From positions 4,091,253-4,155,252 of the forward strand of contig CAJINV010000003.1 in assembly GCA_905178155.1 (NCBI GenBank): a stretch of 64,000 bases of DNA, given 5' to 3'. Of the stretch, positions 15,031 through 42,633 are shown piece by piece. This DNA comes from Amoebophrya sp. A120. Taxonomy: Eukaryota > Protista > Dinoflagellata. Both the position numbers and the translations under genes were made by a program. The first letter of the stretch is position 1, and each line of letters starts with the position of its first letter. The notes under the pieces are model-generated. The model was not told the DNA's origin, did not search any database, and saw only the letters and a list, made by a program, of their open reading frames with translations.

Positions 15031-17526
15031 CTAAGACAGTGGTCTTGATACCACGGATGGTTTACTGGAGTCAGCACGCCACTGCTCTAAACTTTTTTCC
15101 AGTTTGTGCACAAATGTGTTTGATGTTTCATTTGGCGCCGTCTCTCCCTTGATCTCACAGTTCTGCATCTGTGTCACCAGGTCGCGCAGCGTTAAGCAAG
15201 CGCCTCCAAGCTGCGCGCTCTGGTCTGCATCTGCGTGCTCCCGCACCTGCGCCGTTGCAGTACTATCGGAGTCAGAAGCTGTCCTCACCTCGGCCTCGGG
15301 TTTCGTCTTTATTCCCTGTTCTGTGTCGTCCCCGAGACCAACCGTGCGATCGACCCAGGGACCATAGAACGGGCACGTAACGGGGCTCATGAAGTACCAG
15401 CACATTTGCCCGAGATCCGTCCACGTCAAGGCCTCCTTTGCTTCATCTTGAAAGAGTATCGCCTCCTCAGCATCCTGGTATGGGCCGAGAATCTGGATGC
15501 CCTTGGTGCCGTCGCTTTTTCTGGCGTCCGCAAAGTCCACGACGTAGTACTCGCCATTTTTTGTTTGCAGTACGACAAAGGCCTCTGTCCACACCGTTCC
15601 CGCACTTTTTGGCGAGCAGCTGTCGTTCGTGGTCGCACCACACGCTGCGCAGGCCTGCCAGACCCGCGCCATGCCGTTCCCGAGGGCATTTACGAGAACC
15701 GGGGCCCAGTCCCACCGGTAGCGCAGAACCCGCTCGCACGAGGTCACTTCTTCATCCAGGCAGCGGACGTCCGGCACGTGCACGGGCGGCAATACGCACT
15801 GTAGCCTGCAACTGCCGTCGAGCGACACACCGCTGCGCGCCGCGGTACTCCGAAACTCTTGTAGACACTCGCCGGTCTTCCAGCTTGCGACATCCGGGGC
15901 TTCGACACAAAAGTGAGCGTTCTCGAAGCGACGGAGAAGCGGGACGGCGCTGTTTGCAGAAGCACTCTCTACTGCAAGAGAGCAATCCGCTGCTGGTCGA
16001 GCTTGTTTTTCGCCGGATCTACTTGTCGTTCCTGCTCCTAGTCCGCCGATAAGGGGCTTTATTCGCGGGAAGTCGGCGCTGGGTCGAAAATAAACAAAGC
16101 TCGGCGTGCTTCTTCGTCCGAACGGTGTCTGCGAATCGACATAGACTACCAAGTTCGTGTCTTTGATCGCTGGAAAAAAAGGCGAACCACTGGAACAGAG
16201 TTTTGCTGTGAACAAGGGACAAGTGTCAGGTTCGCGCACGCCGGATGCATGATCGCAAGGTTCTTTCGCACGCCGCCCGCAAGAGGTGACAGTGAGTCCA
16301 CTGCTTCCTCCTGCGTGTGGGTCAGGAGCAGAGCAGGCTGGCTGCATGGGTGGTGGAGCCACGTACACAATTGTGAGCTTCTCTTGCTGCTTTTCCTTTG
16401 CCTGCATGGTCGTCACTGGAAAATTGCTTCCCGGCCCATCCTCTGGTAGAGCACCTGCTTGATTCGTATTTTTAGCAAGCTCATCTTCACCAAACAAAAC
16501 ACGATGCGCTTCTCCCGACTGCTGCAAGTCCCGGATGACTTCATCGTAACGCTCCAGGGGATAAAAGTGCACGCGTCCTTGCAAAAGCTCCGGGGGAAAG
16601 TGGTGCCCGTCGCTTTTTCCGTTTCGACGGGCTTTCTCGAGTGAGTGCAGGCATCGCAGTCGCAGATTAGAAGAGTGCACAAAAACATGAGCTTCCACTT
16701 TTGGAGCCGCGGGTCGTTCGTCAGCAGTGCTAGAGTGCCGTTCTTCGGTGGAAGCACCTCCACGTACCGCATTCCGCGCTGATGACACTTCATCGTCCTT
16801 GTCATTCGTTTGCGTCTGCGGTTTGTTGGCTGTCCATGTCCTTCGTACCGGGAGGTTTTCGAGTATCAGTCCGCTGAGCGTGTCCAGGATCTCACTCGCA
16901 CGCTCGCGGCTTTCGACCAGCGCCACCTCCTGTTCCGCAGCGTTGGCGGCTCGGTGCCGGTCCCGGTTTCCTTGCTCGTATCCTGAGTAAAAACGTCCCC
17001 ACACCAGAGTCAAGATGGGGATTTTGCAACACAAACCTAAGAGCCTTGGACGTCACGCATGACAACTTGCATTCCATAGTGTAGTGCAGGTTAGCAAGTG
17101 CAGCCGCATCACAGATCCATATGCTTATCCTGTTCACAGCATCACAAATTCCTAAAACACGATTGGAAATGGCTACCATGGGTATGCGCATCACAAATGT
17201 CCTCGTCAATGCAAATCTGCATGACAACTCTGAGGTGGGGACGTTTTTCCTTATGATAGCTCGATCAGATTATTCTGTGTCCGCAAACTCGCGGCTATCT
17301 GCATCGTCTGGTACGCACTGACGCTGTTTGCGAGGGCAGTCACTGATACCGCACCCGTCGCGGCCATCATCGCAGCATTCTGAGTCCCGGCATCAAAACC
17401 GACAGTAGTCAGGAGCGCATTACCACCTTGCGTGATGCCGTCCGCGATGGAGTTCGTAACTTCCGCGGAAAGTCCGTTCATCATCAGCTGTGCTCGCTTG
17501 CGGCCAAGCTGCAACGCCGCTGCACC
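15031..17526 (-). CDS. Hypothetical protein interrupted by an introner; upstream exons unresolved
   Basis: ORFs 17251-17949 and 15031-17034 fuse in frame (..QNNLIE-QGNRDRHR..) once element 16979-17258 plus one TSD is removed. Confidence 0.65.
16979..17258. mobile_element. TIR introner family 1, copy a (280 bp, TSD GCTCG)
   Basis: Left end tatcctgagtaaaaacgtccccacaccagagt pairs imperfectly with right end actctgaggtggggacgtttttccttatgata. GCTCG at 16974-16978 and 17259-17263. Homologous to 30028-30306 in the opposite orientation. Confidence 0.93.
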
Positions 17527-18555
17527 TGGTAGAAACCCACGATTTAAGTTTATGCTGTCCGGCGGTAGTAGAGAAGTTAGGCATTGAAACTCGCCTCCGA
17601 AAAGGCTCCATAGGTTGGAGAAAAAGCACAAGAACCGGAACCAAACGACTAAATCCATTTTGCTAACGTTTATCTGCGGTGCGCCGAAAAGACAATGGGA
17701 AAGAGTAAGAGCTCTGTCTTCTAGAATGTAGAATATATGGTGCCGCGTTGTGCCTTGACCAAAGCGAATTCCAGGTGGAAGTTTACAGAAGCAAGTGTGT
17801 GCGTAGGGAACTTGAAAGTGAAGGATCGGAGTAGATCGACGAGGCAAAAGACCGATGCAGCACGAAGAGCGAAGTGACACGAAATTGAATGATCCACAAA
17901 TGTCAGTTAGCAGTGAGGCCTGAATATGATTTACATCATCTTCATGCAACTAAACTCTTGTCGTTGCCGCAACACTGCCCAAAAAACAGGAACACACGAA
18001 TGCGCATCAGTATGTTAAGAAGCAAATTGCTCCTCACGAATACAGGGTTAGTCATTCGCTCCTTTTTGGGTCAAAAAAAAGCTCATCTAGGTAAACAGAA
18101 ATGAAGCTCGAGCTCGTTCTCGTTTGAAGTAGTTCTCTGGCACAAGAATATGACTGCTTTATTGTACTCGTCGTCCTCGTCGTCGATCCTTGTGCGGAGC
18201 GAGCACCTGGATCAATCGATAGTTGTCTCATATGTTCTCTGCCTCTAATTTGGAATGGGAATGATAAAGATCGACAAGATGCGATCTCGCATAAACGAGA
18301 GTGTAAGCTTCACCGCATTCTCTTCAACTCGCCATGGACATGGTGGTGTTCAGGCGAAGCAAAGAGCTCGATGTCCTCATAGATTAGGTTTCATTGACGT
18401 TCTTCAGGAATATGGAGGATGAATCCGAATCGTCAGGAAAGACCGAAGCATTGAGTTTCGAAAGACAAAGAGGGTAGCGTTCTTGGGTTCTTACTATACT
18501 AAACTGCCTGCGTGCCCAGAGAGATAAGGAAGACTGCAATTATAGCTTTACTTGA

Positions 18556-21222: not shown

Positions 21223-23053
21223 TTGTTTTCTTTCACGATGTCGTCCGGGTCGTTCTAGAACATCTACATCAAGACATGGTCAAGAGAAAAAACAGAAGAC
21301 GAATAGGAATATCAAGCGATTCTCTTCCTGCTATAACCTATCGCTACATCCTCTTCATCTTCTTATGTATCCTGCTGATTTTTTTTTAGGAAGCTCATCA
21401 ACTGCAAATCTTAATTCGGACGAGAACCTTTTGCGATGGGCATCACGATTTGGATTTGCAGCTCCTCTCGACGATCACGATTGCGATTTGAATATGCTAA
21501 AACTCACTCACAGTCATAGCCACAGGAGAGAGATAAGCAGACCACTCCAAATTGGCCACGAACGAAATTCATGTTTTGGTCTAGCTTTTTTATTTTTGCT
21601 ACCAACGCAGAACATGCAAGAATATCGCGCTTTGAAGCCGAAACCGAACTGAAGTACATATGATGTAGGCATACACAGCTGCCGCGAACCGTGGAGCTCC
21701 TTGTTCCAATCACATTTTCGAAAGGAAGAACCGGATTTTTTCATCGTTGAACAGAGAGGATCATATTAGCGTTACTACCGACGAACGATTTTCCCTTGGG
21801 ATTGTGTATTTGCGGATCGTCTTTCATGAGCTTCTTTTTCTCTGCGCAACTTTTTCGCTTTCTTTGAAACTGATCATGATCGTGCGCCTGCACTCCACTG
21901 TTTTTTCTTCATTTCATCTAGATCAATGACATTGTGATCGTATTTACAACAGCAACCAACAGTGCCGGTTAGCGGGGAAATGCATTGTTACTCGCTTGCT
22001 CGGAGAGCGCCTTTGGCTTTGCTAGCGATTTTCTCCTGCTGCCAGAGCCCTCAGACCGAGAAATTGTTCCCTTTACGATTACGCGCCACATCATGATGGA
22101 CCTCACCGAAGGACAAAAAGGAATACCAAATACAGGAACAATTTAAGGTCACAGGATTATGATCGTCATCATGCCACAGCAGCTGTGTCGCTGCGGTGGA
22201 CGACACCAGAAACGAGAGCCGGCGTCTCAGCGGCAGGCCATTGTTCCGCGAATGCTAGGTGACCTACGTCTCATGTGTGTCTCAGAGTTGCGGTACAAGC
22301 GGCAAAGGGACAGAGTCTCGAAACCGTCGGCGTGAAATGCACACGGTGCTATAACAGAATTGGAGGAGTGGAGAGCGCCGGAGCGCCCTTGTGCACCTCC
22401 ATCAATCATCAACAAGTCGGGCCGTTAAATAATGAAATGAGCGCTTTAGTAAAGAGTAGTACGTGCAGCTGCAGTGGTGATTCTTTTGGTAGCAGTCGTG
22501 TGTTCTAAAAGGAGGTGATGGCACCAGACACCTTGCTTCACCAGCTCCATGGCCATACGGGTTACATTGACTGTGCCCATGGCTATGGAAGATGCGTGGC
22601 GGCAAACAAGACCAGGTTGCGATTGGAACCAGGTGCGAATCTGTGTCGTACAACTGAGATGAGGAATAACCACTCGTATTCAAAAAGTTTTCAGCGGGTG
22701 CCTTTGAAAATCGGCAGCAGCAGTAGACATTGGTCGCACTCGCACTCGTAGTTTGATCGCCCATAAGAACCATGTCGAAGGACGCGCTAAATTCGGCTCT
22801 GCGAAGGCAGCCTAAAAATTGATCGATTTCAAGAGATGGTGCCCGAAGGATGCTAGTTACGTGAAGATGATGGTGTTTCTGCACACGAGCAGTTTCTCGT
22901 CGTTCTTCTACAACATGAGGATTTTCTTCTTGGATCAGGAGGAAGTCGTGTAAGGAAAGTATGTGCGCTGGACCACCTCCAGGACGATCTCAACTAGTTG
23001 TTGTACAAGAACTTCTAGCAGGATCGATGAAGTGAATATTACGTGTAGTAGCT

Positions 23054-25174: not shown

Positions 25175-25253
25175 GGATCAGGAAGTAGTAAGAAGTCGAA
25201 TAATATATTTATAAAGCCTTCGAACCACCGACATCCTTATGTTCTCATGCTGT

Positions 25254-26055: not shown

Positions 26056-29000
26056 TTATCCGATGCCGCCCCCGAACCCGCCACTACTTCGGGGCGGTTT
26101 TGCATGCGAGGCGGTTTGACGACGTTCGGGTGATGCTCCGCGTTTCCTCATGCCACCCTGACAAGCGTACCGAGCCCCAGCACCGCCCTGGTTTGAACCT
26201 ACTGCGGATGGCGCTGCCAAAACCCGGTTGCCCGGCAGTCCGCCAAGCCCCACGGGCGCCGGGCTAGTAGCATTTGAAGAACCTCCTACCGCAACTTCCT
26301 GAATTCGGCGCGTTCCTTGCTGAAGCTGGTGGTCGCCGCGCGGCATGGTACCTGCTGGGGTCGTCCTTCCCCTGGCATCCTCCTCCTCCGCAAAGCTCTC
26401 ATCTTCGCCGTCGCGAGCGTGTTCATCTGGACTGGAAAGCAGATCCTCTGCCTCTAGGAGCTGCGGACCGTGGCGGGCATGAAGATCCGGCTCCGCACGC
26501 TCGCTCCTTCGCCGAACCCCAGGAAAGTCGGGCAAGTGCTCCAGAATCCTAGATATCATATTACCTGCAGCCAGAAGGAGGTAGTAGGAGAATGTGGATG
26601 GAAAACCGAAACACCATGAGAGAATAGGAGCAATAAAATATGAATATACTATCTAACGAGCAGCAGTTCGAGTGAGAAAGAAGGAACAAACCCTGCTGCG
26701 GTCGCATGAATCATGTACTTAGTTCTGTTACATCAGATTCAGCAGGAGAAACATCATGGTTGTGCTCTTCATCATCTTCATCACGGTTTTTTACATATAC
26801 CTCTGATCCTCTCTTGAGCTGTGGCGGCCACTATTGCAGTCGGGGTCGTCGGCCGGCCTGTTTCTCTTTTTCTTGTTCGATTTCTCGTCGCCATGTCAGA
26901 CTCATCAGCTTCTGCATCCTCTAGCAGGGTCGTGCCTGCGCTGCCTGTGCGCGTTGGAATTTGTGAAGTAGTAGAGAGTCTCCGGTCAGTGCTCGTAAAC
27001 GAAGATGAGGAGTTGTGTTTGTTTGTTGTGCCAGGGCTCCTCGATCCGGAAGGGGGATTTTCAGTTGTGCCGCGCGCGGCCTGGTGGCGGCTGCCACCGA
27101 GCGAAGTGCTGGACGAAGAGGAGCCTCCTCGTCGTGTGCCGGCGCCGCCGATGTTACCGTCGTCGTCTGACGGATCGTCCTTCCGCGACGAAGAGGATAG
27201 CAAGGTGGCATTTGCCTCGATCAGCCGCTGTTTTTTTCTCAGCTCTTCTTGGCGCCGCTGCAGCTGCCGGGTGGCCCACCAAAACTTCACGTGCGGGCGG
27301 TACTTCAGAAACAGTTTGCTCCCCAAAATCAAGCACAGGATGGTAATCACCGTGATCAGATTCCTGTTGCGTAACGCCTCTGCTTCCCGTTTGCGCCGCC
27401 CACTCTCGTACTGCGCCCACTCGGACTGTGTCACGGTTAGGATCGGCCTTGCTTCCCACTCTTGGACAGGAATTTTTGCAGGTGTCGCGCCAGCTGCAGA
27501 CGCGGTTGATGCCGTTGCAGGTGTAGACGCGGTCTCATCCGTAGTTGTGCCGACCATCCGTCGCTGTAGTCCGAACACATCCACGGTGTACGGGATTACG
27601 ATGGGCCTGTGTGCCTCCGCTCTCATAGATTCCAAGACGGAATCTTTTGGTTGATGCGACTCGGTGTTGTCCGCTGGTGTTGCAGCGTCCGCTTCTTTTG
27701 CTTCAGCCATTTCTTCCATTTCCACTGCCTCGTTGCGTCGCACTCGAGTCAGTTCGTCCTGGTATCTTCTCTCAGCTGCGTGCTTTTGGTGCAGTTTTTC
27801 TACCAGCAGTGCCTCATTAACGCTGAAGCCTCCAAAGTTGTGCTGCACGTTCGGCCCCTTCCAACGCGCTCGAGTCCACAATGCTAACACCAGGTGAGTA
27901 CAGAAATCGATGGGGAAGGGCTGATGTAGAGGAAGAGAATTGAAATCGACAGTGGTCTGCATGAAAATGAAAGGTAGAATGGGGAAACACACGCGCAGCT
28001 TTCTAGTAGCGTGACATTGCACTCCAACTTAGAGGTGAAAAAGAAAAATGGTTCGTAGTCGTTCATGTGGAAAATGAAAATCAGATCCGGCTCGCCGCGT
28101 AATTATGAACCGAGTGCTACAAAAATAATTCGTGCAACAAGTGCTGAGGTACCTTATGCGTGATTCCGCTCGATGTGACTTCAAAGAAGCCGCGCTCTGC
28201 GTTTACTTCTGCAAAGTGGACGTCTCCTGATAGAAAGAGCGTGCGATCCTTGACACGCTCCAACAGCGCAAGAAGCCGTTCCTTGTCGCGCGCAAAGTGC
28301 ATCCAGCTCTCGAAGAGCGGGTTCGACGTCAGCACCTGAATCGACGAGCCAATGACGAGCAGTTTCGGAACTTTACTCGGTGAGACGAGTGACGGGTCGC
28401 CGCCCTCGCTCGTAGGACGATTGTTCTCGTTCCTTTTTTCGTGTTGATCTACTCTGTCATCTTCTCCGAGAAGTAGTTCAGCTCCGCCTTGTTCTTCCGG
28501 GGGAAAGACCTCCTCCAACACGCTTTCGAACCAGGCAAACTGCTCCTACCCCGGTTTTTCATCGTTTTTCAAACTATTGAGCAGGTCTGAAAAATAAAAA
28601 AATGCGACCCGGTCACATGACCCGAGCGTGTGGACCTGAGCGACAGATTCTGTGCACTAGCTAGGGAAAAGGTGGACGATGTTGAGAAGTGACCTTGTGC
28701 ACACTAGCCACTTACTTTATCCGAACCATGTGAGATAGCTCGCTTGGGGGAGCAGATGGGGAAGAATTGAGCTCGCTAGGTGTTTGGTCAAGGTCCAGGC
28801 TTTGGGAGATGTCCCGGACCCGCGGGCCCACAAATTCACTCGAGCCGGCCCTAGTGAAATGAAAAATTGCGAGCCGGTCAAGAATTAGAAAAAATCAAGA
28901 AAAGTGACGCAATTTGGCGCAATGAGCCTGGATTGCCTGCGTTTGCCGTTAGGTGCATGCTCAGGCACCTCCCCCGACGGTTTTGCTTGTATTTTTCGCA

Positions 29001-31658
29001 AGACAAAAATGGCGAAAATGGGCGCCGTGCTTTTTGTTTTGCTTCCGTTTGGGTTTTGTGTCTGGGGTTTTAGCTTGAACATGCATGGCATGCTCGATGC
29101 GCGGCTTGATCGAAATATCTGCCGCATGACGACAGTAAAAGTGCCAAGTTTGATCGGGGGCATAGATTGAACTTGCATGGCATGCTGCACGTTTCGGCGA
29201 CGCATGTTTTGATACTTGTGAGCAAAACTATGGAGCGGCTTAAGTTTTTTATTTTTTTCGAGCTGCTCCATATTTTTATTTTCCAGATCCGCAGAATCTG
29301 TGGGTCTCAGATCTCAGATTCCGGCTCATCCGGAAGACGAGATCCGAAAGCCATGCTCATAATTCTAAGTGTAGACAAATACATATAGGACAACATGAGG
29401 GGCGAGCTGACTCCTGTATGCAAGGTATAATTTCCTAGCGGTCTACATGTGCCAGAGCTAGTGTTAACAAGATCCTCCAGCTCAGGCACCGACGTCGCCG
29501 GGACGTGTGAGCAGGTATCGAAAACATAAAAATCGAACCTGCTCAATAGTTGGAAAAACGATGATATTCCGGGGTAGGGGGAGAAAATTCGTAGGATAGA
29601 TCCTCAGGGGGGAAAATTCCTCCGGGGGGAAGACCTCCTCCATATTGAGAGGAAAAATCCCCCCTCCCCATATTGGAAACGCATTCGTCTGAAAATTTGT
29701 GATGCAGATTTGAGGTCACAAATCCTGTCTGTCTTGCAAGAAGGCAAAGCCAGAGAGTCCGCCGCATTATGCCGGCGGTTTGCAATGCTGTTGGGCTTAC
29801 AGAGACGACATCTGTCATGCTAGTCCCCTACGTCAAAACCTCTCGACGCAGGCTTGGCATATGCCTGCGCTCCTCTCCAGCAAGACAGACCTGATTTGTG
29901 TACGCAAATCCAGCATCAGAAACTTCGTTTCGATATGGGGAGGGGGGATTTTTCCCTTTGATACTCCAAGACGCTTTCGAACCAGGCAAACTGCTCCTCG
30001 CCGAGCAGCTGAATTTTGGCTTTCGCCTATCCTGAGTAAAAACGTACCCACCCCAGAGTTGTAATGCAGATTTGCAATGACAAAGACATTTGTGTTGCGC
30101 ATCCCCATGAGAGCCATTTCCAATCGTGTTTTGGAATTTGTGATGCTGTGAACAGGATCAGCAGGTCGATTTGTGATGCAGCTTTCCTTGCTAACTTGCA
30201 CTACCTTACGGACTGAAACTTGTCATGCGTGACTCACAAAACTCCTAGGTTTGTGTTGCAAAATCCTCATCCTGACTCTGGTGTGGGTACGTTTTTACTC
30301 AGGATATCGCCCCGCTTTCCCACCACCAACCGCAGAACCACGGAAAAGGGAACAAATTCAGAAAGTACTGGGCTGTTCGCGCGAACGCATTCATCACCGG
30401 CCAGAAGATGTGAACCGGTCCGGTGTTGGTGGTGCGGTAAAAAAACTGCAGGAACGGGTTCGTTATCACCAATTCGTTGAAGCTTCGCAGGTCAAACGCC
30501 ACAAAGTGTACCTGGTAATGAAAAAAGCACAAAATGATCGTCCACATCGCTTGTTATTGTTTGCATCTTGTTGTCCCGAAGAATAAACGCAAATCAATTC
30601 TTCAACCAGAATCAATGGATGATCCAAATGGAACGAAACATGTGGAGGCCAGGAACATCATTCTGTTCGATAGTATAATCAGCAAGAACAAACCTCGTAT
30701 TTCTGCTTTTGGGGAGTCGCTTGTGAAAATTGATCATGGTTCCTGCCCCGCGCTCCAGCTCCAAGGTCGACTTCTCCGTCGAAGCGCTTCCAGAAACTGA
30801 GTCCGGGCCCCAGCTGAATGGAGTCGGACTCTTTCACATCTGGAAACACCGCCCGCATATTGTCCTGCCGAACTTTGAGCTCCTCCGGCGGCACTGACGT
30901 TCCGATCGCGTCGTTCAGGCCGAAGTCGTGGTCGTCCCATGGGTATGGGAAACAAAAGCCATGTCGTCCGAAATCCCTTTCAGCGAACAATGCTTCCCTA
31001 GAGCTTGCAGCCGGGGTTTGTGACCAATCATGAAAAGATGAGTTCTTGATCTAAATTTTGCTTGATCAAAAATGCGATGATCAGGGGGTGCCAGAGCTTC
31101 TTGCTTCTTTATCTCGTATCTGCTGTTTTTGCTGCGCTCTTTTCTGGAATGCATGACAGACGCAGATCGAAATTCCGGGCGACTTGGAATCTTTCGCGCA
31201 CGTACGACGCCTAAAATGGTCCGATTTTCGGCGAATTTCGAGTACCAGGGGTTTATCCCGTTGTCTTTGGAGAACATGTCTTCGAGATGGGCCGTGGAAA
31301 GCGCATCGGTCGTGTTCTGGTACGCGCTGTCCCCGAGCCAGATCCATGGCACCTTGTTCGTAGTGGCAGTTGTAGTGCTGGCGCCCCCCGGAAGGTCCAT
31401 CTCGCGGTCCAGCGGCGACGAGCATTTATTTGTTTGCGGGTCGTCGTTCTTGGGGCACGTAGTTGTTGTTCCACCAACATCCTCACTTCCTTGCTCTCCA
31501 AAAGATCCTTCACGTAGGACACGATCTAGCTCCGTCCAGGGCTGGTTTGCGTGAGCTTGCTTCGCGCACGAGCCAAAGCCGAAGCTTACAGGAGCAGCTT
31601 CTGCTAGAGTGATGTAAGCTTCCAATGAAAGCAGGGGGTAGACAAGCATGCCCACCAT
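26056..31658 (-). CDS. phoD: PhoD-family alkaline phosphatase with signal peptide and C-terminal TM anchor; multi-exon, three introners
   Basis: Motifs in order: FGFGSC, WIWLGDSAY, ILGV-WDDHDFGLND, FDLRSF, LLGEEQFAWFE, IGSSIQVL, ESWMHF, FLSGDVHFAE, EVTSSGITH, NFG. Canonical introns 30512-30693, 27957-28152 and 26565-26800. Confidence 0.9.
28549..29574. mobile_element. Non-autonomous TIR element (~1.03 kb) flanked by TA, inside a PhoD intron
   Basis: Left TA-ccccggtttttcatcgtttttcaaactattgagcaggt is the inverted repeat of right acctgctcaatagttggaaaaacgatgatattccgggg-TA. No recognisable transposase ORF. Confidence 0.8.
29643..29963. mobile_element. TIR introner family 5 (321 bp, TSD CTCCA)
   Basis: tattgagaggaaaaatcccccctccccatat pairs with atatggggaggggggatttttccctttgata. 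CTCCA at 29638-29642 and 29964-29968. Removal gives ..ESVLE-EVFPPEE. Confidence 0.88.
30028..30306. mobile_element. TIR introner family 1, copy b (279 bp, TSD TCGCC)
   Basis: Perfect 24-bp TIR tatcctgagtaaaaacgtacccac. TCGCC at 30023-30027 and 30307-30311. Removal gives WWESGA-KAKIQLLGEEQFAW. Confidence 0.95.
30944..31204. mobile_element. Decayed TIR introner in PhoD
   Basis: Left tatgggaaacaaaagccatgtcgtccgaaat versus reverse-complemented right end tacgtgcgcgaaagattccaagtcgcccggaat. The flanking 5-mers have diverged. Removing element plus 5 nt restores the ILGVWDDHD motif. Confidence 0.7.
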
Positions 31659-32203
31659 AGCGACCTCGATTCTCGTGCGCAGGGTCGTCTGGGTCGTCTT
31701 TATGGCGCAAGAATGCAGTATGTTTCTTCTTCTTCAATACCAGGGCGTGAACTTGTGCTTGATGTGATGTAACATCAAGAATACATGCACATCCATATGC
31801 GAAAATGGCAATTCAGTGTCTTTTTACTTTCCGTTTTGTTTAGCGACAAGTCTTTTTTTACGTTGAAAATGTCGAACTACGACTACCACGTCTGTGGGGG
31901 AAGGACATTAAAAAAGGCACAAAACAAACTTAACAAACCAACGGGAACATCACCGAATTCATTGCTGTGTCCTCCTCCTTGAATATGCGTGCTGCCAAAG
32001 AAGCAAAAACGAACGTAGATACATAGAGATTCAAAAAAGCTACATGATTCAACAATGTGATCGAGATTTAACACATTCACATCTCACGAAAAAAAAAGGC
32101 AAATCAGAGAGTGAGCTCGCACAATTGATTCGTCTCGAAAAAATCAAAATGATCGAGACCGAGACGGAGAAAAAAAAAGAATACGCACCTTTCTGGTTGC
32201 TTC

Positions 32204-35200
32204 ACCAGCTCATCTGACCACACAGACAAAAGAGCGAATTCGCGTCCCGCTTTGCTGAAGAGAAACAGGAAGCCTCACAAAAAAAAAAGCGCGCGGATCG
32301 GAGGGCTGGTCAACTGCGTCCGTTAAGTATCTGTCAGTATCTATCGTCACGTGTGATCGTGGCTTGGTAAGTCTTCGGTGAAGACAGAGACACACTCACC
32401 GATCGACTTCTGGGTGCTCATCAGTACGAAGAAGAAGACACGGAGACATGGCCGGTCGACCAGTGACGGTGTCCACACTCTTGCAAACAAAGGCAAAGCG
32501 CTTGCTTCAGGGCCTGCAATAACATTGCTATGAACTTCACCCCGTGTGTGAGTTGTTCTCCGAAACAGGAAAACGAGAAACGTATTTACTGAATTTCTTT
32601 GGGAACGAAGGACGAGGAAAAATCAATGAGAGTGCCCTGCAAAAAAATCTGTCAGGTGGTAGGTGGGTCTTACTCGAGAAGAAATCATTACACCATTCCT
32701 TTGGTTCTGTGACTGCGTTCGTCGTCACCGCATCTTCCGATGTCAAAAATCCTGAAGTACTTGTACACTAACACTTCTTCTTGTGGTCTAAGAAACTACG
32801 AGCTCTGATGTTGAACAAATACAAAAGCACGCCAAAGAAACGTAAGTATTATACATTTTTTTCAATTTCAACTTATACCTACCAGTTTTCTTTGCCTGTC
32901 ACTGTTTGCGACTGATCTCGTACGATGGCAGCAAATCGGGACGAGGTATTGCAACATCCGTTGCAGCTGGTCCACGATTTTTCTTTCTCTGAGTGTTAGG
33001 GGACATGAATCCTCGCACAGGTGGGAGTTCGTGAACATCAACATAGTTAGCTGCTTTATAGTCAACAACACCACACGCACACGCTTCGCTTTCTCAAGCT
33101 TGACGATGACGTGATGTTATTAGTTAAAATCACGAGCGTCGAAGAACTTGCAAACCTATGCTCACTTCTTTGTCGCATCTGGGACGTCGGTTCCAGCAGC
33201 ACGCGCAGTAGATGGTTGTTTTTTGTTGGCTGCGCCCGTTGCTGGTCCGGAGGATGAAAACGCGGAAAAAAGATTCATGCTCCGTAGCGACGGTGACAGA
33301 GACAGGGAGTGGGAGGCCGTTCCCACCCGCGCCGGATCGGCGCTCGGGTTGGTGGTCCGCTGATGTTGATGTTCCGGGTGCGGCACAAGCAGGGACATAA
33401 AGGACGACGACCCGCCCGCCGTTCCTGAGGAATGGCTGCGACTGCCCCTTCGTGATAAGCTGGTCTCAGGGCTCTGTCCACTGGTGCCGCTGAAACTCAG
33501 GCTCTCTTCCATGCTCAAACCGACCCCACCAGAAGTTCCACGCGCGCGCGGTTTGAAGTCCAATAAGCGCTGCACGCGCTTGGACCGGGATGTGCGCTGC
33601 GGCAAGCCGGGGAGGCCCTCCGCCTCGCGTCTCAAACGGAGGTCTTCGCGCCAGGCCTGCAACGGAGAGAGCTTCGCGGCAGCTTTGGCTTTCGCGGGGG
33701 AGGCCGGTGCAGTCATGCTTGTGGCGAAGTTCGGAGACTGCAGGCCCGTTGCTCCACCCATCAACGTGGCCGTGCTGGAGCCACCTTAGAGATGACGATC
33801 ATATAGATGAAACGATAAAAGAACTGAGCGCACGACCCCACGAAGTCCAAAGGAAAAAGGACGAGCATTGCAGATTTGAGCCTGCATCTGAATTTCGATT
33901 GGTCATGTTTGGTTTGTTGAAAAATTTTTCGTAAAACGATAAACAAAAGCGATGTTTCGTCACAGCAGTGTACCAGGTAGCAGTCCACCTTCCGCTGATC
34001 GTGCTTGTGGCGACTCAAGGACGCTGGTTCCGCCTATTCCGGAAAGCGTCAACTCCTCCTTGCGCGAGAGCAAATTCATGTTGGACGGCGATTTATCACC
34101 TCTCTCCTCGCGACCACTTTTCGGCGGGTACTGTTCCTGCTCGTGGTCACCAGAGGAGCTACTCGCAGAAGAGGACGGTTCGGGGAAGAGTTCTTGCTTT
34201 CCAGGTTGCAGCGCTGTCTTCCTCTGCTCGCGCTGCAACTGCCGCTGTTTTTTCCGCGTCGCGGGGCTCTGAATCCGGGCGTCGTCTTTGACCACGAGCG
34301 GCTCCAGGTCCACGTCCGAGCCGTCTTGTTCCAGCGGAATTGAACCTTCAGCCCCCGCCGTGAGACTGAGATTGTCCGGGGACCCACTTCCCGACTCGCT
34401 TGTCTTGTTCCCGCTGGCACTGCGACCGTGGGGCGACTGACTTCTCGACTTGGCAGAGACGCGCTTCGCCTGCTTGAAAAGCTGAGTAAAGTTCGGCATC
34501 ATTCCGGGGCGGTCACCCGGCGACCGCTCGTCCTTCATCATGACGTTTGCCGTGGAAACCTCCGCATCAATGTCGATGTCCTCCATCTGAAACATGCTGG
34601 CCTTTTTCGCCGGCTTGGTCACCTGGCTCGTCCGCGTCGCAGCACCGGCCGCCGCGTGGTCGGAGGTGCCGGAAGTGGAACGCACGAGGTCCGCACGTGT
34701 TGCCGCGCCCAGACTGGTGCCCGCCGGAGGAGCGAGGTCATCCACATCCTGCTCGTCGACTGCAAGGAGGCGGTTGCCGTTTTTATCGGTGGAACCGCGG
34801 TCACCTTGCGCGGCCATTTTGGCGGGCAGCAGAGGCCTCGGACCCCGGCTATGCAGCGCCCCGTCGATTTCGCGGGTAGTGGTTCGAGTACTTCTTCGTA
34901 CTGTAGTTCCTTGCTGATGATCCTGATCGAGTTCGAGGACCCCTCCTACTAGTACTTCCTCTGTGGCGGGTTGTTCTAGTAGTACTCCAGTACCGTGGTG
35001 GTGCTCTTCGGACGCCGTTCGCGGCATGGTGCTCGCTTGCGGGTCATCGCGCAGGCCTCGCAGAGCTTGCGTAGCATCGGACGCGAAGTGCTGGGAAGAG
35101 AAGTCTTGCTCCCGGCCAAAAGAGGCTTGTTGGCCCGAGGCAGACCCACCCATACGACCGCCCGGACGCGCGGCAAAGTCGTCCTGGCCCATGTCTCGTA

Positions 35201-38200
35201 GCGCCTGTTCCCGCTCCTTCGCCTCCTCATCCTCGTCCACTTTGGTCGGCGACGAAAGTTTCCAGCGCAAAGCCTCGGTTATTGCGGTCAAGTATGGCCA
35301 CGGTTCCCGCTGCTCGGTGGGAGAGAAGGGCTCGGCATCGATGTGCCGCTGCGGGTCAATTTCGGTCCGATGCGCGCGTAGCGTTTCCCGAGCCTCCGGA
35401 CTCCGAGGATCAATGTCTTTCGGGAGCTGGTGAAACTGGATCCCTGCGTCGAGCCCGGCCCGACTTTTGGCCATCATATTGCCACTTTCGTCCTCGTACA
35501 TCCAGTTGTGGTCTCGCCACCGTTGCCCCACGGGTACGGGTCTCTTCTTCGGCACGGCGTCTGCTTTCACAGACATGCGAAAGCTCTCGTCGTTTCTGTC
35601 GATCGGGAAAGTGCGCACAAATTTGGAGCGCACGTGCGTCATCTGGCCCGGGCGCGGGGCGTTCGTGAGCGCTGGCGCGCCGCCCCACTTCAGATTCGTA
35701 AATTGCTGCTGCGAAGTTGAAGGGCTGGACATTCCAGGAGAGCGCTCGCCTGGCCGCGGCGGTGGGGACCGGCTTTGCGAGTTGTCTGCCCTCCAGGACT
35801 GTTGGAGGTTCTGCTGCTGCGGTTGTCCGGCGATCGAAAGACTGCTCGGACTGGTCCCCAGCATGATGCGATTGACCGCATGATCGCGGTCTGGCGTACT
35901 CCCACCTCCCTCCGAAGAACCTCGTGCAGCGGTCCCACCACGTGGCCCAGCTGCACCTTGCGCGGCCATCAAAGACTGCGATGACAGGAAACCGCCTTGT
36001 TCGGAAGCGCCAAGCGGTGGTCCCGACCGCAGGTAGTTCGGGTTTGGACTCTCGGCGGAGCCGCTAGCACCCCGCACCATTGAAGTAGTTCCCAGAAGCG
36101 TGCCGTCGGCCGTCATGAGCGGGGCACCTGGCAGCGGGGCACGGTGTACGTTAATCATGGCGCCCATGCGCTGCGCTGACGAGAGGACCACCTCGAAGTA
36201 CCGGTTCTGATTGCCGACCTTCATGACGGACGGTGGCTGCTGGGGAAGGAGGCCGGGGCCGTGCGTCCTCATCTGCGGGTCTAGGAAAGACGTGGGCGAC
36301 GCCTCCCCTTGAGCACCACGAACTGAGGCACCCAGGGACCCAACCTTCTCCCTTGAGGACGAGGAGGACCGACTCTCGCGTCTGCTTTTGTTCGGGACAG
36401 ATCCTGAGCCGCTCGACTGGGAGTCGTGCTCCGAGTTACCATCGTTAGCGACGGCCACGGTCTGCGAAGCGCGTCGCTTTTTCTTTACCTTCGGACCGAA
36501 CCGCGTTCGCGGCTGGCCACTTGCGTAGACGTTGTTCTCTGGACTGCTTTTGCGCCGCGACGAGCCTTTTGTTCCCAGCAGGTCGTCCTGCGCTGCTCCG
36601 TCCCCGTCCAAATCTGCACCTTGGCCCTCTGGCCCGACTCCGGGGGGTAGATCTGTCTTTCGTGACCCGTCCAGATTTGCGGCCATGGCCGACTTATTTT
36701 GGATCGGTGAACCCGGGGGGCTTTGGGGCGAACTGATGTCGGAATCGATTTCCGCTTCTGCGATGCGCTGGAATTGCTGCTCCTCGCGTAATGTGCGGAT
36801 CCGCTTTCTCGTTTGCTCCACGCGCCGCAGCAACGCGGGATCGGGAATCGCGGGCTTCGCAGCTCCTCTGCTGGAAGATTGGTCACTCTCGTCCTTTGAG
36901 CCGGACGGTTCCGGGCTGGGTTCTATTTCGTCCACTCCGTCTTTGTTCATCTCCGATTTGTTGTTCATCCCAACAGATGCGGACGAGCCCTTGCTTAGAA
37001 ACCGCAGCAACTTCCGCCCCATGCCGGAAGGTTCGCCGGTGCCGGTTGCTGCGGCGACTTGTTGCAGGAGCTTCCGCGCTTCCATGATCTCTTGGCGAAT
37101 CTCCTTCTCCGTACGCAGAGACGCGGGGTGGAAGTTGTGTGCGGGGCTCCGCGGCATCGCACTGGAAGACTCCTGTTGAGGGGACCCGGGTGGAGTTCCA
37201 CCTCCCTGTTGCACGAACAAGCGACGGTCTTTCATCGCTAGCCGCAACTTGTACCATAGCCGCTGCCCCGAGCTTCGCTCGGTCGCTGCAGTTGCTGGGC
37301 CTCCCGGAGTTCCTGCATTATCGATATTATCCTCTTCCGGACCCCCTCCATCCAGAGTGCTGTCGCGGAATCGCGGTTCCCCCGCTGTGGTACTACTGCG
37401 CTTGAAGGGTGACCGCAGTACGTTCAGCCCGCGCTCTACGTATTTTTTTCGCCGCAGCATGGCGATCAGCTGTGCCACTCGCTGCTGTCTCGCGCGCCTG
37501 CAGGTGTTTATTTTCCAGTTTGCGTGGTCGCACCGTGGAGATGAAGGTATTCTTGACTTTGGTTTTCTTGCAACGTTGGTTTGTTTTTCATCATCATCAG
37601 CACAAGTTAAAGATAAAGGCAACAGTTTTTCATCTTTTCTCACTTTGATAGCAGCTCGTAGCAGATCCAGAAGTAGAACGCACAGATGCCGGCCATATGA
37701 AGAACGTTGAAGACGCTCAGGAATGGTACGAAAGTCGCTGCGCGCTGGCTGGGATCGACGATCTCGCCCCAAACATTAAAGTTCTGAAGCCCGTCCAGGC
37801 TGCCGATACTGAACCCGAAGAACACGTTGAACCAGGTCAGGGCAACCAGCAGAATGGCCACGGGAATCATACCCAAGGCGATCTCCGAGGGTACTGCACC
37901 CACTGAATCACGCAAACGCAGCCGCGATTCCAGAACCCGCTGCAGCTTGTCATGCTGCAGCTCCGCTTCGTCTAGAACCGTGTCAAAGACAGTCTGCACC
38001 TGATGTAGTCATATCGATTGCAGTCTCAGTCGGAATGAGTTCATGGTTGATAATACTCAGAAGTACGTCGACGAAGACGAGTGCAAAAAGTAGTACCTCA
38101 ACGAAGCGCTCTTGGAGGGTAGAGTTGAGCTCATGTAAAGTTTTGGCAATCAGATCGGCCCGGCCGGTATCAAATGTAAAAATGTCTGGGTCTGGAAGGT

Positions 38201-38803
38201 TGGAACTTGTGATGCTAACTTTGGACTCTAAAAAAATCTGTATTGCATGACCAGCAAGAGGAGTCTAGTTTGTGCTACACGGGGAGGGCATTTGTCATGC
38301 GGAAAAGGCATCAGGAGGCCTGCTAAAAATCTGTGATGCTAGGTCGTGCATTACAGACATCCTGGGTCATACAAAATATGCATGACAAACCCGGCAACAT
38401 TCCAGACCCAGACATTTTTGCATTTGATAGCCGGTCATGCGTGCATGCGTCTTGGCGGTGAAGTCGAACCAGTAGTGCATTTCTCCGCAGCTCTATCGCA
38501 AGAAAAAAGTGTTACAGTTACACATTGTGTTCGCGAAACAAGCAAGACAGGCAACCTTTGTCATGCCGGATATGCATAGGAGCCTCGTTTCATAGGTGTT
38601 TTCCCGTAGGATTTCTGCATTGCAAGTTTTCTCTCTCATACACGGGAAATTTGTGTTGCTGAATTAGCTACAAATGTGTAACTGTAACACTTTTTTCGTG
38701 GGATAAGCTCCGCTCGATCCCCCGCAGGGCGGCGGCTGCGTTAGCGAACGCACACAGTACGCTCGTGTACTGGTACTCATTGAAGCGGTGTTTGAACGGC
38801 ATC
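32204..38803 (-). CDS. Large hypothetical protein: N-terminal TM segments, then a long disordered region; both ends uncertain
   Basis: Frame ..LRGIERS-CGEMHYWFDFTAKTHARMTG-RADLIAK..RFVE|VQTVFD.. is continuous after removing two introners and one GT-AG intron. It continues through ORFs 37640-37999, 33960-37772 and 33162-33764 and probable small 3' exons near 32985, 32751, 32513 and 32255. Confidence 0.6.
38168..38429. mobile_element. TIR introner family 2, copy a (262 bp, TSD GCCGG)
   Basis: tatcaaatgtaaaaatgtctgggtctggaa pairs with ttccagacccagacatttttgcatttgata. GCCGG at 38163-38167 and 38430-38434. Confidence 0.95.
38494..38705. mobile_element. TIR introner family 3 (212 bp, TSD AGCTC)
   Basis: tatcgcaagaaaaaagtgttacagttacacatt pairs with aatgtgtaactgtaacacttttttcgtgggata. 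AGCTC at 38489-38493 and 38706-38710. Confidence 0.93.
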
Positions 38804-39806
38804 CTGGCGAGGGAGGGGGTTGCGGGTGAGCTGAGCGCGGAATAAAGCGTCTCAGATTATACGAGCAGCCACGAGAACGCGGTGCAAAGTCGTGTAAATT
38901 GATACAGTATCCGAAAAACAGGACGCACAGGTCGGCGCTGTGGCTGGATAGACCAAAATTTCAAAAAACGCAAGGCACAACTTATCGGGTCGGCTGGCGT
39001 CGTTCTCGTCGTGGTTTCGCTTACACTACTTGCTTCCTCCGGAATGTTGAAGCCGATTTGAGCCGAGATCTGCATTTGTCATCCTTATCTGACAAAGAAA
39101 TAGAAGGCACCCGCGGGTGTATAGGACAACCACGATAGATGAAACACATTTTAGTTTGCTTACGCCGAACTAGTAGCCGACCCCTTGGCAACGAGAAAGA
39201 CGGGTCTGCACCATAAGCACGAGCCATGTACTAGAAATCTTTTATTTCTATCGCTTGTGCTGAAAAATCATCATTATGATAAGAATCTTCAATATGTCAG
39301 GACGCGCACCGCAAGGGTAAGAAAGCTGCTGGTGTAGTCCTCGTCGGACAAACTGAAAGGAATAAAAGCCCTCGCTTGCATGGCAGTGGACACTTCAACT
39401 TCATTATTGCGACACGGCTGAGTAATATCATCTTGTCGGGAAAAATTTGGCCGACAGGCGAACACACATGCAGCTTTGGAATGTCCTCCTTCTTCTTCTT
39501 TGGAATGTCCTTCTACATTCCTCATTGGCGAAAATCTTCTGTCGTTGCGGTCAGTCGCACCCTGCTCGAAATAAAACTAGTCGCTCTGATCCTGATGGTG
39601 ATGAATGTTGTACGCTACTTACAGTTACAGATACACGTACGAATTGTTGTCGCAACCGTGAGGTGGAAACTTTCATATTTCGAATCTGGATTGAAATAGA
39701 TTGGTGGATACTTCTGAGTCGCTATTTCATCTGAAACACCGTAAATAATATACTTCTTTTTCTTTGCTATTGTAAGTCTAAGTCTTAATTTCATATTCGC
39801 TTTCGA

Positions 39807-40481
39807 TCATGCTACTCTCGCGACGAGCTGCTCAACTTCGCGCTTCATGGCATCATTCCAGCTGGCCACATCCTCCACTACTTTCTTCTTCGCTTCGATT
39901 CCCACAACGTCGGCAACACCAAGTTCCGCCTCGTACACTTTCCTGTAGTTCGTCTGTGCTTTTTCCAGTGCACCGCACACAAATCGTACTTGCGGCATCG
40001 CGGGAAAAAATGCGGCGGTGGATAGCGCTTTGGTCTGCCGTTCATCTTCCTCCAGTAAACTGATGGTGGCGTCGCCGAGCTCTCCGCCTCCAGGAAAGTC
40101 GTCGTCATCGGCTGGGTCAAGCTCCTTACTTTTGCTCGAGGACGAACCTCCGCCGGCAAGGACGGTGATTCCGCGCAACAGCGCCACGGCAAAGCTGACT
40201 CTCTCGAAACTTTGCCGCGCGCAAACACAGAAAACTAGCACTGCTTTGTTTCCGTCTGCGAAAAGGCTGCTTGTTCCGGTAGTACTGGTTATCGATGGAC
40301 TTGTTCTTGCCACGGGCGTGAGGTGCAGGACTCGTAGCTGCGATTTCACGAGCTCCATCTCGCCGAAGGCTTTCACGAGCTGCTCGCGAATACTCGCAAA
40401 AATGTCCTCCTTGCTAACCGACAGGCGCCGCACCCCGTGGAAGCTGAGCTGGACTCCGAAGTAACGCCGCTGTGGTCGCAT
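39807..40481 (-). CDS. RNase P/MRP subunit Pop5/Rpp14-family protein
   Basis: MRPQRRYFGVQL start, IREQLVKAFGE, SFERVSFAVALLRGI and VRFVCGALEK match the Pop5/Rpp14 pattern. Confidence 0.7.
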   Translation of the reverse strand: MRPQRRYFGVQLSFHGVRRLSVSKEDIFASIREQLVKAFGEMELVKSQLRVLHLTPVARTSPSITSTTGTSSLFADGNKAVLVFCVCARQSFERVSFAVALLRGITVLAGGGSSSSKSKELDPADDDDFPGGGELGDATISLLEEDERQTKALSTAAFFPAMPQVRFVCGALEKAQTNYRKVYEAELGVADVVGIEAKKKVVEDVASWNDAMKREVEQLVARVA

Positions 40482-41206
40482 TTTTTACTTCGATCCTCTG
40501 AGCGGGTAAACAGGTTCAACTCAGCGATAGGTCGCAATTATGTTTGACTAGACTACATCGATAGGAACGGGTATCGGTATGATAAATCAGGATTGCGTAA
40601 CATTGTCGCCAACTACCTGAATGTGAATGAATCTCAACAATAAAGGTCGTAAATTTCAACATTAGGATCTGATCAGCATCAGCTCGTTCTTCATAGCAGG
40701 TACCTACGTTGCTACGGCTTCACAGCTTGTGACCAAACGATTTTTGCAAGCGTTCTCGTGCTTCAAAGCGGATCTTTTTTTTGAACGTTTTACTCGGTCA
40801 CCAAGGGATCAAGCGGAAGATCGCGAAACCGTTGGTCCAAAGCATGAATCGGCTTCGGCAGTCTCTAAATGTCCATAATGTGGTAGAAGATTTCCGACAG
40901 AGTTGCGACCACTGCCATTCAGGAAATTCCATTGAATTTGCTGATCACTGGCGCAACTTCTAATTTACCGTCGATCAAGGTAGACATAGATCTAGTAGAT
41001 CTCATGTTCTATTTCAATTTCTTGGTATACGAACAAACTGAAGACCAGCACGGCCTTGCAGTTGCAGCCATATGCCACTTCTAGTTACAGCAGCGCGTCA
41101 CTGCTAGTAGAAGCAATCAAGCAACGACTTCAAAATCGCACGCGCTTGAGGAGTTCGAATATAGGAAGAGAGCTCGGCTGCAGTTCATTTGCTGGTGTGC
41201 AGATCA

Positions 41207-42633
41207 TCAGTAAGTCAGCTCGACTGCTGGTCCGTCGTCATCCACCTCATCTACTACCTTTTCCTGCCTCGTGAGCACAACCGGCGTCGCTACAACTTCC
41301 GCTGCTCGCGCAAACACGCTCTCGAGAGACGCTGATTGGTCTTCCGTCGCGGATACGTTTTCTGTGTCAGTGTCGGCGACGTCGAAGACCGGTTCGTTGT
41401 TTTGGAGATCCGTGGTCCCGTCGGGCAAATCTACATCTGCGTCCACGAGTCGGTACACGTCTCGGACCACGTCTTTGCTTTTCTTCAAGGCCTGAAGTAG
41501 TTCGTCCTGTGCGGCTATCAAATGTAAAAATGTCTGGGTCTGGAAGAATCCGAAATCAAATTTGTTCTGCTGTTTTTGCATGACACAGAATGTCTGTCAT
41601 GGAAGCCCTAGCATCACAGATCTTTAGAGGCCTTCCTGATACCTATTCCGCGTGACAAATGCCCTCCACGCGTAGCACAAACCGGACTCCTTTTGCTGGT
41701 CATGCAATACAGAATTTTTTAGAGTCCACAGTTAGCATCACAAGTTCCAACCTTCCAGACCCAGACACTTTTGCAATCCATAGCGGCATCGCGTGTGCGC
41801 TTTGAGGTCGGCGACAGCCGACTGAGCTCATCAGGTGTATGCATTGCAAAACTATCGTACTAGTAATACGTATAAATTGCATTACAAATTTTCCCAAGAA
41901 CAAAAATGCAATTTGTCATGCTGTTTCACGTAGAAAGTTGAATTTGTCTTGCATATCTGCGACTAGTACGAGTACGATACTTTTGCACAGGATAAGGTGT
42001 TGCGCCGAGCAACGTCGTCGTGCTGCCGCCGGCTTGTTCGCCAGTAGACGTGTTATTGCCACTTGTTTTCATCTGGGCTTGTATTCGGTCGTCCTGCAGC
42101 TGCGTTAGGTACGTGTTCATGCGTCCAATCTTCTCATTCAGATCCGGCAGGTGTAGCCTCTCCCCATCGAGGCTCTTCAAGTTCCGCAGATTGCTTTCGT
42201 TGAGTAGGGTCACGCGGTACTGTGGGTGCAAGCACACCGGACACTGCCGCGCATTAACATTATCGACGTCTTGGAAGGAAATGTGTTCCAGTTTGTCCTG
42301 CCCGCGCAGCCCTTCGAGGTCTGCCACTCTCGAAATTGGGTTGTTCTGCAGTCGCAAGACTCGAAGTGCACCCTGCACAGGAAGATTCTCGCATTTGCTC
42401 AGCTTGTTGGAGGAGAAATCCGCGTGCTCGAGGAACGAAAGATTCGTAAGAGACGATCCGAGCGTGGTAATCTCATTCTCAGATAGGTCGAGAAATCGGA
42501 GGTTCACCAACCGTTCCAGTACGTCGACGGGGCTGCGAATCCGCTTCTTCGATAATACCAAGCGGAACACCGTTTGCAGGTCGAATTCTCCGGTCTCACT
42601 CTTCAGCTGCTGGGCCGTCAGCACAACAGACAT
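41207..42633 (-). CDS. Leucine-rich repeat protein, LRRC61-like, two introners
   Basis: LKSETGEFDLQTV N-terminus, LRRs (LRFLDLSENEI, LRVLRLQNNPI) and LRR cap (CPVCLHPQYR..LKSLDG). Frame LGATP-DELSRL..RDAA-QDELLQ is restored by removing both elements. Confidence 0.8.
41516..41782. mobile_element. TIR introner family 2, copy b (267 bp, TSD GCGGC), inverted relative to copy a
   Basis: Same TIR as 38168. Its interior is the reverse complement of about 38200-38343. GCGGC at 41511-41515 and 41783-41787. Confidence 0.94.
41838..41994. mobile_element. TIR introner family 4, copy a (157 bp, TSD AGGTG)
   Basis: tatgcattgcaaaactatcgtact pairs with agtacgatacttttgcacaggata. AGGTG at 41833-41837 and 41995-41999. 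Confidence 0.92.

What the first reader, a model, noticed from the sequence alone, without database searches (positions are those of the whole stretch)
16979..41782. Introner removal is orientation-independent
Seen: family 1 copies (16979 and 30028) are mutual reverse complements, as are family 2 copies (38168 and 41516), yet all four sit in minus-strand genes whose frames are restored by removal. A spliceosomal intron's branch point and pyrimidine tract are strand-specific, so an interior that works both ways cannot easily supply them. Inference: the signal is the symmetric TIR stem, either an RNA hairpin juxtaposing the TSDs or, less likely, DNA-level excision as for ciliate IESs.
Basis: partly seen in the sequence, partly recalled or inferred. 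Interest (0 to 1): 0.8.

Follow-up and report, generated by a model that had tools for sequence, protein, structure and literature searches.

The report
Two-way transposon introns of Amoebophrya
Small transposon copies inside genes of the marine parasite Amoebophrya sit in both directions and are cleanly missing from transcript assemblies either way; these introns are already published, and their mirror-image ends likely hand a loosened spliceosome the same few signal bases whichever way round they lie.

Summary
Observation confirmed. The four elements are Amoebophrya A120 introner elements (published: PMC7789003): TAT...ATA inverted ends, 5-bp target duplication. The pairs are reverse complements (86%, 84%). 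Transcript-type contigs lack exactly element plus one duplication copy at 30028, 38168 and 41516; 16979 is supported by an annotated protein and an ungapped homolog. In 119 loci of another assembly, both orientations occur in genes (34:22, 24:8, 15:16) and both restore frame.

The inference is only partly right. The ends, not the interior, carry the signal, and DNA excision is unlikely. But two-way introners with normal splice sites are known, so two-way removal does not exclude the spliceosome. I found no RNA-pairing signature (G-U 132, A-C 121). Conservation follows the transcript strand instead: the first U and one A near the 3' end never vary (11 of 11 changes hit their mirror positions). 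This fits a cut 1 base before and 4 after the element, with U at +2 and a candidate branch A at -7. The scan noted this register earlier on other pieces of this genome; the orientation test appears new. Spliceosome use is inferred.

The parts
16979..17258 (.). Introner E1, family 1 (280 bp); 5-bp duplication at 16974-16978 and 17259-17263; predicted intron under the 1+4 register 16975-17259 (minus)
   Evidence: P0001 equals the spliced translation; homolog ungapped
30028..30306 (.). Introner E3, family 1, opposite orientation to E1 (279 bp); duplication 30023-30027 / 30307-30311
   Evidence: joint skips 284 bases in 2 of 4 RNA-type runs
38168..38429 (.). Introner E4, family 2 (262 bp); duplication 38163-38167 / 38430-38434
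   Evidence: joint skips 267 bases in 4 of 4 runs
41516..41782 (.). Introner E6, family 2, opposite orientation to E4 (267 bp); duplication 41511-41515 / 41783-41787
   Evidence: joint skips 272 bases in 4 of 4 runs
29643..29963 (.). Introner E2, another family (321 bp)
   Evidence: joint skips 326 bases in 3 of 4 runs
38494..38705 (.). Introner E5, another family (212 bp)
   Evidence: joint skips 217 bases in 4 of 4 runs
41838..41994 (.). Introner E7 (157 bp), related to E8 in the same orientation (74%)
   Evidence: joint skips 162 bases in 4 of 4 runs
44395..44542 (.). Introner E8 (148 bp); its removal was not checked against RNA
30940..31205 (-). GT..CA non-canonical intron without a repeat at its ends; likely a decayed introner (core 30944-31204) cut 1 base before and 4 after the core
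   Evidence: joint in 3 of 4 runs with no slide; weak inverted ends, 22 of 2000 shuffles as good; no BLAST hit to the element set
15031..17658 (-). Host gene of E1, 780-aa protein P0001, no Pfam family
29484..31733 (-). Host gene of E2 and E3, 397 open codons across both joints; 3' end unresolved; the WDDHD motif suggests a PhoD-type phosphatase (recalled, no Pfam hit on the exon tested)
33165..38856 (-). Host gene of E4 and E5, 1592 open codons, no Pfam family on the pieces tested
41209..42642 (-). Host gene of E6 and E7, leucine-rich-repeat protein, 333 open codons
   Evidence: LRR_4 hit
28492..28547 (+). Diverged duplicate of the E2 insertion site without the element and with one copy of the 5-bp target (53 of 56 identical)

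Best explanation
These are non-coding, inverted-repeat transposon copies that sit in exons in both orientations and are absent, with one copy of their 5-bp duplication, from transcript assemblies; they are likely cut out of the pre-mRNA by a loosened major spliceosome that would read the symmetric ends. Shown: both orientations, exact removal, no need for GT-AG, retention in a DNA-type run. Inferred: the cut lies 1 base before the 5' end and 4 bases after the 3' end; the element's first U then sits at intron +2 (the U of the usual GU) and the first A of the closing AUA at -7, a candidate branch adenosine. Because TAT...ATA reads the same on both strands, either orientation supplies both bases, and the register removes element plus 5 bases, so the frame is restored by construction. 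The predicted 30-bp RNA stem may help bring the ends together, but that is untested. The interior motif repeated every 31-33 bp is more likely a DNA-binding site for mobilisation than a splicing signal.
For: Exact joints for six elements, including the opposite-orientation pair 38168/41516. Orientation relative to host strand in another assembly: family 1 34:22, family 2 24:8, a third family 15:16; frame kept in 78 of 88 confident sites of 219 examined, family 1 8 of 10 and 12 of 13, family 2 6 of 9 and 4 of 4. GT/GC-AG readable in 14 of 196 sites, 11 of 196 on the antisense control. Transcript polarity: among 214 sites the 5' terminal T changed 0 times and its 3' mirror 5 times; the A three bases from the 3' end changed 0 times and its 5' mirror 6 times; 11 of 11 changes, on 7 contigs, in both element orientations. 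Duplication mismatches: 21 at base 1 vs 5 at base 5 by host strand in 206 sites (locus permutation p=0.005), 9 vs 6 by element orientation. At the 1+4 register AG ends 28 of 228 introns vs 13 of 228 antisense and 6.6% background; G ends the upstream exon in 89 of 228 vs 28.7%; 60 of 130 sites would be phase 0. The decayed GT..CA intron fixes the same register. Precedents: U2 spliceosome removes TIR-derived non-GT/AG introns in Fritillaria (10.1101/2025.08.15.670264, introduction); short fixed branch-to-end distances without a pyrimidine tract (PMC2483917); A120 keeps most spliceosome parts but U1 was not found (PMC7789003 section 10).
Against: No lariat, knock-down or cross-link evidence exists here. 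The bases upstream of the -7 A do not form one branch consensus across families. The register rests on one decayed intron of uncertain family, on post hoc statistics not corrected for choosing among six registers, and on host strands that are predicted (leave-one-out 130 of 154 150-nt windows; Pfam agreed in 5 of 5 hits). With single mismatches only, the duplication asymmetry falls to 13 vs 5. A non-spliceosomal RNA enzyme could also be strand-polar. Family 2 shows a 3:1 orientation bias. The RNA evidence is contigs of one sample, so splicing efficiency by orientation was not measured.
Confidence: 0.6

Rival explanations
1. The RNA stem formed by the inverted ends is itself the signal and a non-spliceosomal nuclease/ligase cuts at its base, as suspected for euglenid nonconventional introns.
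For: Stem predicted in both orientations: median pair probability 0.94 for pairs 1-3 and 0.91 for pairs 9-20 in 224 elements. No selection for GT/GC-AG. U1 not found in A120. Euglenid precedent (PMC11282704, passages).
Against: G-U 132 vs A-C 121 in the first 20 pairs of 230 elements, p=0.53; arm duplex equally stable on both strands, 105 vs 103; pairing is weakest at positions 4-8 beside the cut; the terminal pairs break on one side only, keeping the sequence of +2 U and -7 A rather than the pair. The G-U test is weak because a stem of about -37 kcal/mol tolerates single mismatches.
Confidence: 0.25
2. RNA-level removal with a sliding or variable cut inside the duplication, guided by identity of the two 5-base copies rather than by fixed bases.
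For: With perfect duplications every register gives the same mRNA; 163 of 221 sites keep a perfect duplication.
Against: The decayed intron is removed exactly with 1 of 5 duplication bases matching, if it is an old element; strand-polar invariance of two terminal bases.
Confidence: 0.1
3. The elements are excised from DNA before expression, like ciliate IESs.
For: TA-bounded ends and precise loss; one related haplotype (L006) and one paralogous stretch (28492-28547) lack an element and keep one target copy. Life stages were not sampled separately, and 429 joints of the DNA-type run were not shown.
Against: In DNA-type run X1, contigs at depth about 44 run unbranched from flank 24-28 bases into the element at 12 of the 14 ends of E2-E8; the other two ends were not displayed. 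The empty sites differ from the filled ones by 2-9% in the flanks, so they are other alleles or copies, not products. RNA-type runs hold element ends joined to long flanks. Conservation follows the transcript strand, which a cut on double-stranded DNA would not need.
Confidence: 0.04

Closest known systems
Introner elements (IEs) among the non-canonical introns of Amoebophrya sp. A120 (Farhat et al. 2021, PMC7789003; Gozashti et al. 2025, PMC12130899)
   Same: Same organism (P0001); inverted ends starting TAT, then seven variable bases, then a run of A; 5-bp direct repeats; no transposase; RNA-supported removal without GT-AG; hairpin already proposed.
   Different: The text and supplement text I searched give no count of element orientation relative to the host gene, no fixed register and no branch candidate (figures not visible).
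Either-orientation introners of Polarella glacialis (classes 1, 2, 3, 6, 7, 8, 10) and Aureococcus anophagefferens (10.1101/2020.10.14.339549)
   Same: TIR transposons that make introns in both orientations, often with a bias to one.
   Different: They recruit G-starting donors (GT/GC/GA) and, in the classes whose ends I read, AG acceptors from element or duplication; here only 14 of 196 sites can be read GT/GC-AG.
Fritillaria borealis non-canonical introners (10.1101/2025.08.15.670264, introduction)
   Same: Non-GT/AG introns from non-autonomous TIR transposons; removed by the U2 spliceosome.
   Different: Splice sites there are the TIR ends and U1 is conserved; here the cuts are predicted to lie in the duplication and U1 was not found.
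Euglenid nonconventional introns (PMC11282704, passages)
   Same: Inverted ends, duplication-like repeats, non-canonical borders, no pyrimidine tract.
   Different: They leave as full-length circles by an unknown route; the excised form here is unknown.
Ciliate internal eliminated sequences (recalled)
   Same: TA at both ends, precise removal restores frames.
   Different: Removed from DNA; here the DNA-type run keeps the elements and a 5-bp duplication outside the TA is involved.

Membership tests
Amoebophrya A120 introner elements | Genome of Amoebophrya A120 | tested here: met
   P0001, 100% identical, is named Amoebophrya sp. A120
Amoebophrya A120 introner elements | Terminal inverted repeat starting TAT, seven variable bases, then three or more A | tested here: met
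Amoebophrya A120 introner elements | Direct repeat of 3-5 bases at the borders | tested here: met
   perfect 5-bp repeat at 8 of 8 window elements
Amoebophrya A120 introner elements | Repeated family members | tested here: met
   98 family-1 and 44 family-2 copies among 311 elements
Amoebophrya A120 introner elements | Removed from transcripts without GT-AG | tested here: met
   six joints; five of those six elements have no GT/GC-AG reading
MITE / non-autonomous TIR DNA transposon | Target duplication made on insertion | tested here: met
   empty sites keep one copy
MITE / non-autonomous TIR DNA transposon | Known cognate transposase | tested here: inconclusive
   no Pfam hit in 37 open frames of four long elements; no whole genome was held
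U2-type spliceosomal intron | GT/GC...AG ends | tested here: not met
   14 of 196 vs 11 of 196 antisense
U2-type spliceosomal intron | Branch adenosine and lariat intermediate | tested here: inconclusive
   strand-specific invariant A at predicted -7; no lariat data
U2-type spliceosomal intron | Dependence on spliceosome components | not testable with these tools
   needs inhibition or knock-down
Euglenid-type nonconventional intron | RNA stem selected for pairing | tested here: inconclusive
   stem predicted; no G-U excess
Euglenid-type nonconventional intron | Excised as full-length circle | not testable with these tools
   no suitable reads
Ciliate-type IES | Absent from the expressed DNA | tested here: not met
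   one DNA-type run; rare or stage-limited excision not excluded
Rfam self-splicing or other RNA families | Match at gathering score | tested here: not met
   0 matches in the window

The most novel reading that the evidence does not exclude
The 3-base palindromic tip TAT...ATA is a complete, reversible splice cassette: it gives a U1-less spliceosome a +2 U and a branch A at -7, the cuts are counted 1 and 4 bases into any target duplication, and so any insertion, in either direction and at any exon sequence, becomes a scarless intron at once.
Probability: 0.5. Interest if true: 0.75.

Novelty: already known. Interest (0 to 1): 0.45.

Why it matters
How Amoebophrya removes tens of thousands of introns that lack GT-AG is left open in the paper that described them. 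Showing that both orientations work rules out the interior as the signal and narrows it to the ends. The strand-polar conservation turns the open question into three point predictions (cut register, +2 U, branch A at -7) that existing RNA-seq, lariat sequencing or minigenes can test. It would also explain why these elements spread so far through exons: no orientation or target sequence is lost to failed splicing. The elements themselves, the hairpin idea and two-way introners in other algae are already in print.

Tried and rejected
No whole genome was held, so the orientation count uses 119 loci picked by a family-1 end pattern from one other assembly; 64 got a host-strand call. That organism's relation to A120 is not established: two protein searches gave no A120-named hit. 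About five pairs of sites with shared flanks were not removed from the orientation counts; they were removed. The frame caller mis-called E2 and E3, which RNA shows in frame; they are among its 10 misses. The first lay was swamped by repeat contigs, so its joint table could not show excised forms. E1 and E8 were not covered by the RNA-only lay. A 4+1 register (acceptor ATA+N) was considered: it fits the phase counts and the GC-AG reading of E3 but not the decayed intron or the low mismatch count at duplication base 5, and the base after ATA shows no drift to G. The interior motif as a branch point was rejected: 18 of 23 E1-type copies have none on the transcript strand. Substitution-spectrum and left-right covariation counts were uninformative or confounded by descent. 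No transposase in long elements; no Rfam match. Literature searches for an orientation or branch-point analysis in Amoebophrya found none; most subscription papers are outside the library, 39 of 58 A120 rows of one supplement and two supplement files of PMC12130899 were not seen, and supplement figures of PMC7789003 are not visible.
Full report
Observation. A scan for TA-bounded inverted repeats with a flanking direct repeat finds eight strong elements in the window, all TAT...ATA with a perfect 5-bp duplication: 16979, 29643, 30028, 38168, 38494, 41516, 41838, 44395. 16979 and 30028 are 86% identical as reverse complements (61% forward); 38168 and 41516 are 84% (60% forward); interiors alone give 85% and 83%. 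The window is Amoebophrya sp. A120: a public protein of that name is identical to the host gene of 16979 and equals its translation after removing element plus one duplication copy; a homolog of about 55% identity is ungapped across the joint.

Removal. Four RNA-type runs (one sample; RNA is the tool's guess, but the contigs skip minus-strand GT-AG introns and have no cover at 31904-32337) skip exactly element plus 5 bases at six elements, including 30028, 38168 and 41516. The joined models give 397, 1592 and 333 open codons, and break when the element is kept. In a DNA-type run, contigs at depth about 44 pass unbranched from flank into element at 12 of the 14 ends of E2-E8; two ends and 429 joints were not displayed. 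So removal is not a common DNA event in that run; rare or stage-limited excision is untested.

Orientation at scale. No genome was held. A family-1 end pattern fetched 119 loci of one other assembly with 303 distinct elements; 128 lay in 40 loci against 1 in their shuffles. A codon model trained on the window (leave-one-out 130 of 154) called the host strand for 64 loci; all 5 Pfam hits among 126 locus frames were on the called strand. Orientation relative to the host, window copies excluded: family 1 34:22 (p=0.14), family 2 24:8 (p=0.007, one of 13 clusters looked at), a third family 15:16. Where both flanks had a confident frame, removal kept it in 78 of 88 sites (of 219 examined; one third expected): family 1 8 of 10 and 12 of 13, family 2 6 of 9 and 4 of 4. 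A GT/GC-AG reading exists in 14 of 196 sites against 11 of 196 on the antisense strand. Orientation independence therefore holds, with at most a mild bias.

The interior. A 9-base motif first seen in the window elements occurs at 15 per kb inside elements and 0.76 per kb outside, in 309 of 311 elements; 304 of 701 same-strand spacings are 30-33 bp. In family 1 it lies on one strand only, so the two orientations give transcripts with opposite motif content and both keep frame. I infer a DNA-binding site (three helical turns) for mobilisation, not a splicing signal. No transposase was found.

The hairpin. The arms are predicted to pair on either strand, as Farhat et al. proposed (PMC7789003: abstract, sections 10-12, 16, 20, passages and supplement text read). 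If RNA pairing were under selection, G-U should outnumber A-C on the transcript strand; counts are 132 and 121 in 230 elements, and arm duplexes are equally stable on both strands. Pairing is poorest at positions 4-8. This gives no support to the stem as the signal, but does not exclude it, since the stem has stability to spare.

Transcript polarity. Mismatches between the two duplication copies fall 21, 9, 11, 10, 5 at bases 1-5 by host strand in 206 sites (locus permutation p=0.005; 16 vs 1 with stricter and 22 vs 7 with looser strand calls; 13 vs 5 for single mismatches), but 9 vs 6 by element orientation; this test was post hoc. The GT..CA intron at 30940-31205 has a unique joint, weak inverted ends and a 261-base core beginning 1 base after the 5' cut and ending 4 bases before the 3' cut; its family is not proven. 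At that register AG ends 28 of 228 introns (13 antisense; background 6.6%) and G ends the upstream exon in 89 of 228 (background 28.7%), and 60 of 130 sites are phase 0. I reached this register. Earlier unreviewed notes of this scan on other pieces of the genome state the same; the label '1+4' and the lead to two strand-specific bases come from them. I tested that lead on the other assembly: with terminal bases free to vary, the 5' first T changed 0 times against 5 for its 3' mirror, and the third-last A changed 0 times against 6 for its 5' mirror, in 214 sites; the middle base changed 2 and 3 times. All 11 changes spare the predicted +2 U and -7 A (2^-11 if independent, 2^-7 counted by contig), and they occur in both element orientations.

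Mechanism. Shown: two-way insertion, exact loss from transcript contigs, indifference to GT-AG, presence in DNA. Inferred: fixed 1+4 cut, +2 U as donor remnant, -7 A as branch point, action of a loosened U2-type spliceosome (0.6). Known spliceosomal introns have branch points this close and no pyrimidine tract (PMC2483917, passages), and the U2 spliceosome removes TIR-derived non-canonical introns in Fritillaria (10.1101/2025.08.15.670264, introduction). Rivals: hairpin-directed non-spliceosomal cut (0.25), sliding cut (0.1), DNA excision (0.04).

Novelty. The elements are the published A120 introners (also PMC12130899: passages and 19 of 58 A120 rows of supplement 8). Either-orientation intron creation is published for Polarella and Aureococcus (10.1101/2020.10.14.339549, passages; the Aureococcus paper itself was not read), and PMC9860276 (passages) allows for opposite-orientation copies in its method. 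I found no orientation or register analysis for Amoebophrya. Verdict: a real and now better supported property of a known system; the interest lies in the testable predictions for its unsolved splicing route.

Noticed in passing
window 28547-29576: About 1030-bp element with roughly 40-bp inverted ends (TAC...GTA) and no 5-bp duplication, next to a 56-bp diverged copy of the E2 empty site; RNA-type contigs appear to leave the genome near 29600, and the joint was not resolved. No Pfam hit in its frames.
   Followed up: partly
window 30940-31205: GT..CA intron, likely a decayed introner, still removed exactly with only 1 of 5 duplication bases matching.
   Followed up: yes
window 56376-58698 and 61718-63989: Tandem paralogues about 75% identical, 5.3 kb apart; the first frame has DUF4116 repeats.
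   Followed up: no
window 8700-9033: Five imperfect 25-bp repeats between two Menorin-domain frames.
   Followed up: no
L001:3090-3358 and L006:1899-1962: Related haplotypes or paralogues, 91-98% alike, one with and one without a family-2-type element.
   Followed up: partly
L010:2673-3703, L014:3001-4148, L029:3759-4965: Elements of 1.0-1.2 kb with family ends and no coding match; L029 has a 269-bp element at the same site in L042, so some may be secondary insertions.
   Followed up: partly
whole window: All fifteen 4-kb blocks score as minus-strand coding, a long co-oriented gene block (partly circular, since the model was trained on the window).
   Followed up: no
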